IMG/VR virus record: IMGVR_UViG_2724679293_000010
Location: 1-11,399 of that record
Source of the DNA: a virus
Taxonomy: Duplodnaviria; Heunggongvirae; Uroviricota; Caudoviricetes
DNA: 11,399 nt
Direction: 5' to 3' (one strand)
In this document: positions 9,403 to 10,160 of the stretch, in pieces
Layout of the letters: every line of letters starts with the position of its first letter
Position numbering within the stretch: position 1 is the first letter of the stretch
The notes under the pieces: generated by a model
What the model was told of the DNA's origin: nothing
What the model saw: only the letters and a program-made list of their open reading frames with translations
Databases searched by the model: none
Program-made: the position numbers and the translations under genes

Positions 9403-9759
9403 TCACAACCTCCTTCCCTCCTCCCCGAAACGGACTCCACCGGCGAGGCCCGCCGCCTTCTGCATCAGTACATCATTTTCGTCCGGCGTCTCCGCCTGTC
9501 CTTCCTCTGCCTCCGGAGCGAACAGGCTGAAATCCGCCGGATGCATATCCGGATCGCAAAAAAACAGGCTGAGTACGGCGTACATCAGCCCGGAAAAATG
9601 CATATCCAGCTGGGTATCCTGAAAATAATGCGTGCAGTAAAAACGTCGCCAGTCGGCATATTCGGTGGATGTCATCCCGGCAAGCATGGCGCGCCAGTCG
9701 GCTCTCCCCATCTCACGCGCCAGTTTCAGGACAAAGTTCAGCTCGCCTTCGAATGCTTT
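9403..9759 (-). CDS. T: tail assembly chaperone T segment, expressed only as a G-T fusion after a -1 ribosomal frameshift
   Basis: The -1 frame relative to G reads KAFEGELNFVLKLAREMGRADWRAMLAGMTSTEYADWRRFYCTHYF... from 9756 down to TGA at 9405-9403. This frame is closed by TGA at 9777-9775 and has no ATG before the slippery site, so it has no independent start. Matches lambda gpT as remembered. Confidence 0.85.
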   Translation of the reverse strand, partial: KAFEGELNFVLKLAREMGRADWRAMLAGMTSTEYADWRRFYCTHYFQDTQLDMHFSGLMYAVLSLFFCDPDMHPADFSLFAPEAEEGQAETPDENDVLMQKAAGLAGGVRFGEEGRRL

Positions 9760-10160
9760 TTTGATGTTACCGGCTCAGTCGCTTCTGTTTTCCCGGTTGG
9801 TTCAGGATCGGCATCGTGCCGGTTATCCAGCATACCTGAAAGATAAAGCACCCGGTTCGTTGCCTGATTCAGTGCATCAGCAGGCCATCCCAGCATCACT
9901 TCACGGCGGATCTGCTGCATCTCTGTCTCCGGAGAGGCCAGAGTGCCTTTGAGGGAATGGGAATGCCATAGCGACATCGCCACAAGCAGGGATGCCGTTT
10001 CCAGATATCGCTGGTTAATGTGCACGACATCATGCTTCGTTGTCTCCTGTTGTTCTGCGTCTGAAACAAACTTTATATAATCAAACCGCTGCAGCGCAGA
10101 CAATTCGGAAAGCGTGACGGACACACCGTTATATTCAAATTGTTCTGTTTTCAGAAACAT
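9738..10160 (-). CDS. G: tail assembly chaperone G
   Basis: Start placed at the ATG at 10160 (MFLKTEQFEYNGVSVTLSELSALQRF...), with GGAGG 7 nt upstream and 13 nt after the V stop, rather than the track's upstream ATG at 10232 that overlaps V. 140 aa; matches lambda gpG as remembered. Confidence 0.9.
   Translation of the reverse strand: MFLKTEQFEYNGVSVTLSELSALQRFDYIKFVSDAEQQETTKHDVVHINQRYLETASLLVAMSLWHSHSLKGTLASPETEMQQIRREVMLGWPADALNQATNRVLYLSGMLDNRHDADPEPTGKTEATEPVTSKKHSKAS
9756..9762 (-). other. programmed -1 frameshift slippery heptamer A-AAA-AAG (G to G-T fusion)
   Basis: In the G frame the codons are tcA AAA AAG (minus-strand 9762-9756), five codons before the G stop; shifting -1 here joins G to the T frame. 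Confidence 0.7.

What the first reader, a model, noticed from the sequence alone, without database searches (positions are those of the whole stretch)
9738..9777. G-T fusion uses a dnaX-type A-AAA-AAG slippery heptamer rather than lambda's G-GGA-AAG
The T frame has no start codon: it is closed by TGA at 9777-9775 and homologous T sequence begins immediately downstream. The only way into T is a -1 shift from G, and the only slippery X-XXY-YYZ heptamer in the 39-nt window between that TGA and the G stop is tcA-AAA-AAG at 9762-9756. This conserves the lambda G/GT mechanism but with a different, highly shift-prone heptamer, which may change the G to G-T ratio.
Basis: partly seen in the sequence, partly recalled or inferred. 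Interest (0 to 1): 0.45.

Follow-up and report, generated by a model that had tools for sequence, protein, structure and literature searches.

The report
Known lambda-type G-T tail frameshift site
This is the ordinary programmed -1 ribosomal frameshift site that joins the tail-assembly chaperone genes G and T of a lambda-like E. coli prophage. Its A-AAA-AAG slippery sequence was already catalogued for the near-identical phage VT1-Sakai, and it was measured to be no more slippery than lambda's own G-GGA-AAG.

Summary
On the minus strand, G (10160-9738, 140 aa) overlaps a -1 frame that is closed by TGA at 9777-9775 and encodes a gpT homologue. A_AAA_AAG at 9762-9756 is the only in-register X_XXY_YYZ heptamer in the overlap. 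It lies 15 nt before the G stop, exactly where lambda has G_GGA_AAG. One detail is wrong: the T frame does have an ATG, at 9711, which annotators use. That ATG has no Shine-Dalgarno sequence, is absent in most relatives, and lies downstream of where T homology begins.

The locus is 99.9% identical to phage VT1-Sakai, and the literature (Lynch 2012, citing Xu, Hendrix and Duda 2004) already lists AAAAAAG as that phage's frameshift site.

The suggestion that the heptamer changes the G:GT ratio is not supported. Published E. coli measurements give nearly equal efficiencies for the two heptamers: 0.29 vs 0.28%, 4.3 vs 3.8% and 39 vs 43%. Only the heptamer resembles dnaX; there is no upstream SD-like stimulator. 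A candidate downstream stem has mixed comparative support. Across the wider family the invariant element is A_AAG; most relatives carry G_GAA_AAG.

The parts
9738..10160 (-). Gene G, the tail assembly chaperone: 140 aa, zero frame, stop TGA at 9740-9738.
   Evidence: Translation. Pfam PF06894 (Phage_TAC_2) at E 1.4e-34. Annotated as G in VT1-Sakai and as gpG in RefSeq. Strong SD (-10.7 kcal/mol).
9756..9762 (-). Slippery heptamer A_AAA_AAG (tcA AAA AAG, G codons Ser133-Lys134-Lys135): the -1 shift site.
   Evidence: It is the only strict in-register X_XXY_YYZ in the overlap. It lies 15 nt before the G stop, the same position as lambda G_GGA_AAG. It is present in 72 of 83 related junctions.
9775..9777 (-). 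TGA that closes the -1 (T) frame upstream; it sets the 5' limit of the region where a productive shift can occur.
9403..9756 (-). T-frame coding sequence read after the shift: first new codon GCA at 9756-9754, stop TGA at 9405-9403. It adds 117 aa, giving a 252-aa G-T fusion.
   Evidence: Translation. Pfam PF06223 (Phage_tail_T) at E 1.4e-12. Similarity to lambda T starts immediately after the heptamer.
9709..9711 (-). Internal ATG that database annotations use as the 'T' start. It is probably not a real initiation site.
   Evidence: No SD (-1.9 kcal/mol). The Met is replaced by Phe in the wider family, and 43 of 80 loci have no start codon at all before the PDWR motif.
9741..9747 (-). 5' arm (GGCGAGC) of a candidate downstream stem. 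It starts 8 nt after the heptamer and abuts the G stop codon.
   Evidence: MFE folds of the window and of lambda both contain it (z = -2.0 and -1.9). It is paired in 17 of 17 distinct sequences of the first set. In 54 distinct sequences, pair 16/84 is GC in 27 and AU in 25, but pair 19/81 is a G.G mismatch in 14. Status: inconclusive.
9679..9685 (-). 3' arm (GCTTGCC) of the candidate downstream stem.
   Evidence: Same as for the 5' arm.
10174..10926 (-). Gene V (major tail protein), the upstream neighbour that defines the synteny.
   Evidence: Annotations.
6804..9359 (-). Gene H (tape measure protein), the downstream neighbour that defines the synteny. Its SD (GGAGGTGA) lies in the remnant of the T C-terminus.

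Best explanation
The site is the programmed -1 ribosomal frameshift signal of the G/GT tail assembly chaperone pair of a lambda-like E. coli (EHEC-type) prophage. Most ribosomes translate G to its TGA at 9740-9738 and make the 140-aa chaperone. A few per cent slip while tRNA-Lys occupies both the P site (AAA) and the A site (AAG) of tcA-AAA-AAG. Both tRNAs re-pair one base back on AAA-AAA, decoding resumes at GCA (9756-9754), and a 252-aa G-T fusion is made that ends at TGA 9405-9403. By analogy with lambda, the G part binds the tape measure protein H and the T part recruits the major tail protein V, so a low, fixed GT:G ratio is needed for tail assembly. Shown here: the sequence anatomy, the homology, the synteny, and conservation of the site's position and register. 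Inferred: that slippage actually occurs, its efficiency (expected in the low per cent range, like lambda's roughly 3-4%), and the protein functions. The heptamer is one of three interchangeable forms found at this position in the family (G_GGA_AAG, G_GAA_AAG, A_AAA_AAG). The constant element is the A_AAG slip of tRNA-Lys in the A site.
For: G and T identity: Pfam PF06894 at 1e-34 and PF06223 at 1e-12. Gene order U-V-G-T-H-M-L-K-I-J on the minus strand. Frame geometry and the unique in-register heptamer. Exact positional homology with lambda's experimentally established G_GGA_AAG, 15 nt before the G stop. The site is kept in 72 of 83 close relatives, while relatives whose G is 41-47% identical carry G_GGA_AAG at the same place. 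Seventy-nine of 80 more distant T-domain loci carry G_GAA_AAG there. T-frame conservation extends upstream of the only ATG; that ATG lacks an SD and is not conserved. Literature: AAAAAAG is listed as the VT1-Sakai frameshift site (PMC3483164, citing Xu 2004). [quoted passage not shown] Natural tail-chaperone sites with these motifs gave 7% and 6% (PMC3711429). The lambda G:GT ratio of about 30:1 is critical (PMC5009743; PMC3296357).
Against: No experimental data exist for this sequence; the frameshift and its rate are inferred. This particular prophage copy looks defective: J is split by a 368-bp deletion and H is shifted by an 8-bp deletion relative to an intact relative, so the site may no longer be under selection in this genome. 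Bare heptamers gave only about 0.3% in reporters. A lambda-like rate of about 4% therefore implies a context effect that has not been identified.
Confidence: 0.9

Rival explanations
1. T is made as an independent 102-aa protein from ATG 9711, either by ordinary initiation or by termination-reinitiation after the G stop 26 nt upstream, as the database annotations imply. On this view the heptamer is incidental.
For: ATG 9711 exists and is used as the T start in VT1-Sakai and in many NCBI records. It lies close to the G stop, so coupled reinitiation is physically conceivable.
Against: There is no SD (-1.9 kcal/mol against -10.7 and -13.6 for G and H). T-frame conservation runs through the 16 codons upstream of the ATG, including the 26 nt that are non-coding in every other reading. 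The Met is Phe in the wider family, and 43 of 80 loci have no start codon there at all. From memory, not checked here: lambda has the same ATG, yet Levin et al. 1993 found T only as the G-T fusion.
Confidence: 0.04
2. The G-T fusion arises mainly at the nucleic-acid level. RNA polymerase (or DNA polymerase) slips on the A6 run and adds one A, which puts T in frame and gives exactly the same protein as ribosomal slippage.
For: The run is six A's. Two NCBI assemblies carry A7 at this spot, which makes G-T one continuous 759-nt ORF encoding exactly the predicted 252-aa fusion. This shows the run is indel-prone, or at least error-prone in sequencing.
Against: From general knowledge, marked as such: efficient transcriptional slippage in bacteria generally needs runs of about 8-9 or more A/T. 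Relatives with G_GGA_AAG or G_GAA_AAG have only 3-4 A's at the same site and must use ribosomal slippage. The in-register X_XXY_YYZ geometry is specifically what tandem tRNA slippage requires. At least one of the A7 assemblies has several other split genes, which suggests homopolymer sequencing errors.
Confidence: 0.04
3. The site is a relic. This prophage copy is decayed, and neither G nor G-T is made or needed any longer.
For: J is split by a 368-bp out-of-frame deletion, and H carries an 8-bp deletion that changes its C-terminus relative to the intact prophage of strain RM6067W. J is also annotated as truncated in VT1-Sakai.
Against: This concerns current use, not what the element is. The G-T junction is identical to that of Stx-converting phage records deposited in GenBank, and G and T are intact here.
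Confidence: 0.3

Closest known systems
Bacteriophage lambda G / G-T programmed -1 frameshift (Levin, Hendrix and Casjens 1993; Xu, Hendrix and Duda 2004, 2013, 2014)
   Same: Homologous G (41% identity) and T proteins. Same gene order, V-G-T-H. Same -1 direction. The shift site is at the same codon position (G codons 133-135), 15 nt before the G stop. The A-site codon AAG is decoded by tRNA-Lys, and the shifted product is the longer one.
   Different: The P-site codon is AAA (Lys) instead of GGA (Gly), so both slipping tRNAs are tRNA-Lys. The nucleotide 3' of the heptamer is C rather than U. T is a short allele (117 post-shift residues against 144 in lambda), so GT is 252 aa rather than 279 aa.
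Phage VT1-Sakai (Sp15 of E. coli O157:H7 Sakai) G-T site, listed with AAAAAAG in Xu et al. 2004 as cited by Lynch et al. 2012 (PMC3483164)
   Same: The G-T region is 99.9% identical, and the 145 nt around the heptamer are identical. It is the same element.
   Different: Elsewhere the window is only about 91-95% identical to VT1-Sakai, so this is a mosaic relative and not the same prophage.
E. coli dnaX tau/gamma frameshift cassette
   Same: Identical heptamer, A_AAA_AAG, and the same tRNA-Lys tandem slip.
   Different: There is no SD-like stimulator upstream and no compact strong hairpin 5-6 nt downstream. The shifted product is longer, not shorter. The expected efficiency is a few per cent, not about 50%.
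HK97-like tail assembly chaperone frameshift (ECs1801 cluster A_AAA_AAG_25 of Sharma 2014; Phage_TAC cluster of Antonov 2013)
   Same: A prophage tail chaperone of EHEC genomes that uses A_AAA_AAG for a -1 shift into a longer product, measured at about 7%.
   Different: It belongs to an unrelated chaperone family (124/226 aa), and its heptamer is followed immediately by the stop codon.

Membership tests
Lambda-type G/GT tail assembly chaperone frameshift | Two overlapping ORFs lie between the major tail protein gene and the tape measure gene. | tested here: met
   The order is V (10174-10926), G (9738-10160), T frame (9403-9777), H (6804-9359), all on the minus strand.
Lambda-type G/GT tail assembly chaperone frameshift | The upstream ORF is a gpG homologue and the downstream ORF is a gpT homologue. 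| tested here: met
   PF06894 at E 1.4e-34 and PF06223 at E 1.4e-12. Alignment with lambda G and T.
Lambda-type G/GT tail assembly chaperone frameshift | The downstream ORF is in the -1 frame and has no functional initiation signal of its own. | tested here: met
   The frame relation is shown. The only start codon (ATG 9711) lacks an SD and is not conserved; 43 of 80 relatives have none at all.
Lambda-type G/GT tail assembly chaperone frameshift | An in-register slippery heptamer lies inside the overlap, near the 3' end of G. | tested here: met
   A_AAA_AAG at 9762-9756 is unique in the overlap. It occupies the same position as the lambda site.
Lambda-type G/GT tail assembly chaperone frameshift | The shift site is conserved in relatives. 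| tested here: met
   Seventy-two of 83 junctions carry AAAAAAG and 10 carry GGGAAAG. Seventy-nine of 80 more distant loci carry GGAAAAG. All are in the same register; the G stop lies 15 nt downstream in the first set and either 15 or 3 nt downstream in the distant loci.
Lambda-type G/GT tail assembly chaperone frameshift | A G-T fusion protein is made at a low, fixed fraction of G and is required for tail assembly. | not testable with these tools
   This needs a reporter, western blot or mass spectrometry and phage genetics.
dnaX-type frameshift cassette | A_AAA_AAG heptamer. | tested here: met
dnaX-type frameshift cassette | A Shine-Dalgarno-like stimulator about 10 nt upstream. | tested here: not met
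   The best anti-SD duplex in the 25 nt upstream is -3.6 kcal/mol, about the 10th percentile for the gene, against -7.6 for an AGGGAG control.
dnaX-type frameshift cassette | A stable stem-loop a few nucleotides downstream. | tested here: inconclusive
   There is a 7-bp long-range stem with an 8-nt spacer enclosing 55 nt. z is about -2. One covarying pair supports it, but a mismatch in 14 of 54 sequences counts against it. Sharma 2014 judged the hairpin of the gpG cluster not above background. There is no Rfam match.
dnaX-type frameshift cassette | The shifted product is the shorter one (premature stop in the -1 frame). | tested here: not met
   The -1 frame stays open for 117 more codons, giving 252 aa against 140 aa.
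Transcriptional slippage site | A long homopolymer run (about 8-9 or more A/T). | tested here: not met
   The run is 6 A's, and relatives have only 3-4 A's at the same site.

The most novel reading that the evidence does not exclude
In the lambda G family the shift depends essentially on the invariant A_AAG (tRNA-Lys slip in the A site), and the P-site codon is freely exchangeable (GGA, GAA, AAA). A conserved 7-bp stem starts 8 nt downstream and abuts the G stop codon (9747-9741 pairing with 9685-9679). On this reading it is an unrecognised modest stimulator that lifts the rate from about 0.3%, as seen for bare heptamers in reporters, to the 3-4% seen in lambda. The literature currently treats the tailed-phage shift as free of stimulators.
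Probability: 0.15. Interest if true: 0.3.

Novelty: already known. Interest (0 to 1): 0.08.

Why it matters
It matters little beyond annotation. The G/GT frameshift is a textbook case of recoding, and the AAAAAAG variant in VT1-Sakai-type prophages was catalogued in 2004. The practical point is that public records still annotate 'T' as a free-standing 102-aa protein or as a pseudogene, when it should be a 252-aa G-T product made by ribosomal slippage. A minor biological angle is inference only. Because both slipping tRNAs are tRNA-Lys(mnm5s2UUU), this allele could be somewhat more sensitive than lambda to the host's U34 thiolation state, which is known to modulate lambda's G:GT ratio (PMC3296357).

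Tried and rejected
1. I looked for a dnaX-like upstream SD stimulator and found none.
2. I looked for a downstream stimulatory structure. A stem is shared with lambda and has one covarying pair, but a G.G mismatch in a 14-sequence clade and a published negative assessment leave it unproven.
3. An Rfam scan of 9300-10300 at E <= 1 found no family.
4. An exact-sequence look-up of the predicted 252-aa fusion did find it in NCBI. At first this looked like an existing slippage annotation. It turned out to come from two assemblies with an extra A (A7) that fuses the ORFs in the DNA, so it is not evidence that the site has been annotated as recoding.
5. I tried to read Xu et al. 2004 and Xu et al. 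2013 directly; neither is held, so the VT1-Sakai listing is cited second-hand through PMC3483164.
6. The genome-contig scan mostly returned lambda itself as low-coverage contaminant contigs in unrelated genomes. The useful diversity came from Kluyvera, Atlantibacter, Entomohabitans and E. albertii.
7. Independent initiation of T and transcriptional slippage were both considered and rejected as the main route (see the rival explanations).

Full report
**What is in the sequence.** The window is the tail-gene module of a lambda-like prophage, with all genes on the minus strand. The order is Z', U, V, G, T, H, M, L, K, I, J, lom.
- G runs from ATG 10160 to TGA 9740-9738 and encodes 140 aa. It matches Pfam PF06894, the lambda tail assembly chaperone G family, at E 1.4e-34.
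- The -1 frame carries a TGA at 9777-9775 and is then open to TGA 9405-9403. Its product matches PF06223, minor tail protein T, at E 1.4e-12.
- Between the two stops there is exactly one in-register X_XXY_YYZ heptamer: tcA-AAA-AAG at 9762-9756.
- A tandem -1 slip there gives G residues 1-135 followed by AFEGELNFVLKLARE..., 252 aa in all.

**One correction.** The T frame does have a start codon. ATG 9711 lies 16 codons after the heptamer, and the VT1-Sakai record and RefSeq both begin 'T' there; RefSeq even flags T as an incomplete pseudogene. It is very unlikely to be a real start, for four reasons:
- Its best anti-SD pairing is -1.9 kcal/mol, against -10.7 for G, -13.6 for H and -5.9 for V.
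- T-frame similarity to lambda T begins immediately after the heptamer.
- The 26 nt between the G stop and this ATG are conserved as T-frame codons with conservative replacements.
- In the wider family the Met is a Phe (LAREF), and 43 of 80 loci have no ATG, GTG or TTG anywhere between the upstream stop and the conserved PDWR motif.

**Origin and prevalence.** The G-T region is 99.9% identical to Enterobacteria phage VT1-Sakai and to CP-1639, 99.5% identical to several Stx2a-converting phages, and 100% identical to E. coli strain SJ7. Of 5,426 complete E. coli genomes, 2,363 have a match to this region, and 383 records match at 99% or better. The window as a whole has no exact match in that collection; the best is 96.9%. 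It is a mosaic relative of those prophages.

**Comparison with lambda and other relatives.**
- Lambda reads ...gcG GGA AAG tgt tcg acg gtg agc tga. The window reads ...tcA AAA AAG cat tcg aag gcg agc tga. The two heptamers occupy the same three codons, 15 nt before the G stop.
- Among the 83 junctions recovered from close G relatives, 72 have AAAAAAG and 10 have GGGAAAG, always 15 nt before the stop. One has lost the site through a deletion.
- Kluyvera, Atlantibacter and Entomohabitans prophages carry G_GAA_AAG at the same position.
- A scan with a T-domain profile found G_GAA_AAG in 79 of 80 IMG/VR loci and G_GGA_AAA in one.

The family invariant is thus the A_AAG slip of tRNA-Lys in the A site. 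The P-site codon varies among GGA, GAA and AAA, and the window's form is simply the allele typical of EHEC-type prophages.

**Is it new?** No.
- Lynch et al. [quoted passage not shown] They cite Xu, Hendrix and Duda 2004, the survey that established the conserved tail-chaperone frameshift.
- AAAAAAG has also been proposed for Paenibacillus phages (PMC6003738).
- It was measured for an HK97-like chaperone of EHEC genomes (PMC3711429; PMC4066793 cluster A_AAA_AAG_25).

**Does the heptamer change the G:GT ratio?** The available measurements say probably not by much.
- Sharma et al. 2014 tested all 64 heptamers in identical E. coli reporters:

| Context | AAAAAAG | GGGAAAG |
|---|---|---|
| No stimulator | 0.291% | 0.277% |
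| IS911 stimulators | 4.26% | 3.80% |
| IS3 pseudoknot | 39.0% | 43.0% |

- Both motifs, together with C_CCA_AAG, form the top tier in E. coli.
- Antonov et al. 2013 measured 7% and 6% for two natural tail-chaperone sites carrying A_AAA_AAG and G_GGA_AAG.
- Two secondary effects remain possible. Here the base 3' of the heptamer is C, whereas lambda has U, and 3' C is reported to be generally more shift-prone with this motif (PMC5009743). Both slipping tRNAs are also tRNA-Lys, whose U34 thiolation state modulates lambda's ratio (PMC3296357). These are inferences, not results.

**How 'dnaX-type' is it?** Only the heptamer matches.
- There is no SD-like element within 25 nt upstream: the best duplex is -3.6 kcal/mol, against -7.6 for an AGGGAG control.
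- No Rfam family matches.
- Downstream, both the window and lambda fold into the same arrangement: a 7-bp stem (9747-9741 with 9685-9679) that starts 8 nt after the heptamer and encloses a GC-rich inner hairpin. The z-scores are -2.0 and -1.9.
- In 17 distinct sequences the outer stem is 100% paired, with one compensatory pair.
- In 54 distinct sequences that pair is G-C in 27 and A-U in 25, spread over at least two clades. However, a clade of 14 has a central G.G mismatch, and a few sequences have other breaks.
- Sharma et al. judged the hairpin of the gpG cluster no more structured than background, and the Atkins review treats the tailed-phage shift as free of stimulators.

I therefore leave the stem as an unproven candidate. 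Bare heptamers gave about 0.3% in reporters, while lambda makes about 3-4% GT. That gap is the only reason to keep the stem in mind.

**Rivals.**
- Independent initiation of T at ATG 9711 is rejected on the comparative and SD evidence above.
- Transcriptional slippage on the A6 run would yield the identical protein and cannot be excluded as a minor contributor. Two NCBI assemblies do carry A7 here, fusing G and T into one 759-nt ORF, although at least one of them has other split genes that suggest homopolymer sequencing errors. Relatives with only 3-4 A's at the site must use ribosomal slippage, and a run of six A's is short for efficient polymerase slippage.
- This copy of the prophage seems decayed. 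Relative to the intact prophage of strain RM6067W it has a 368-bp out-of-frame deletion in J and an 8-bp deletion near the 3' end of H. The site may therefore be unused in this genome, although it is identical to that of Stx-converting phage records deposited in GenBank.

**Verdict.** The feature is ordinary and already in the literature, so interest is low.

Noticed in passing
window 3069-4172 and 1022-3250 (minus strand), breakpoint near 3288-3296: The host-specificity gene J is split into two overlapping ORFs (367 and 742 aa). Compared with the intact 1158-aa J of E. coli RM6067W, the window lacks 368 bp, which is not a multiple of 3. J is also annotated as 'truncated by a mutation' in VT1-Sakai. 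This prophage copy is probably unable to make functional tails.
   Followed up: partly
window 6804-6850 (minus strand): The tape measure gene H carries an 8-bp deletion near 6846 relative to RM6067W. As a result H ends at 6804 (about 851 aa instead of 881) and no longer overlaps M (6399-6728).
   Followed up: partly
window 9360-9405 (minus strand): T is a short allele. An in-frame TGA at 9405-9403, together with about 42 nt of deletions, removes the second GGVRY motif found in lambda and in sibling alleles (158 codons there, against 123 here). The same frame continues after the stop with a decayed remnant (QLLMVSEDISGGDHDG) that now serves as the SD region of H. The short allele is shared by VT1-Sakai and by about 25 IMG/VR loci. 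It explains why RefSeq flags T as 'missing C-terminus'.
   Followed up: partly
window 9276-9282 (minus strand), H codons 26-28: A second in-register slippery heptamer, gtA-AAA-AAA-g (a run of 7 A's), lies early in H. A -1 shift there would terminate after about 11 codons. It is probably incidental, and its conservation was not checked.
   Followed up: no
L196 and L197, positions 1501-2259 (NCBI assemblies GCA_008711395.1 and GCA_003742765.3): The A-run at the shift site is A7 instead of A6, so G and T form one continuous ORF encoding exactly the predicted 252-aa fusion. This is either homopolymer sequencing error (L197 has several other split tail genes) or genuine indel mutation at the slippery run.
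   Followed up: partly
L116-L195 (IMG/VR), heptamer at positions 698-704; also L088 and L101-L106: Most of the wider lambda-like G/T family uses G_GAA_AAG, which is not a strict X_XXY_YYZ motif: the P-site tRNA-Glu would re-pair on GGA with a middle-position mismatch. The G stop lies either 15 nt or 3 nt downstream.
   Followed up: partly
L085-L098 (genome contigs): Short, low-coverage contigs whose G-T junction matches lambda's where checked appear in assemblies of unrelated bacteria (Neobacillus, Pseudomonas, Kitasatospora, Shewanella, Chromatium and others). They are almost certainly lambda DNA contamination or spike-in, not prophages.
   Followed up: no
window 9403-9711; RefSeq loci L002 and L115: Public annotation of this locus is inconsistent. 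T is given as a free-standing 102-aa protein (GenBank) or as an incomplete pseudogene (PGAP), and in the records examined here never as a ribosomal-slippage G-T product.
   Followed up: yes
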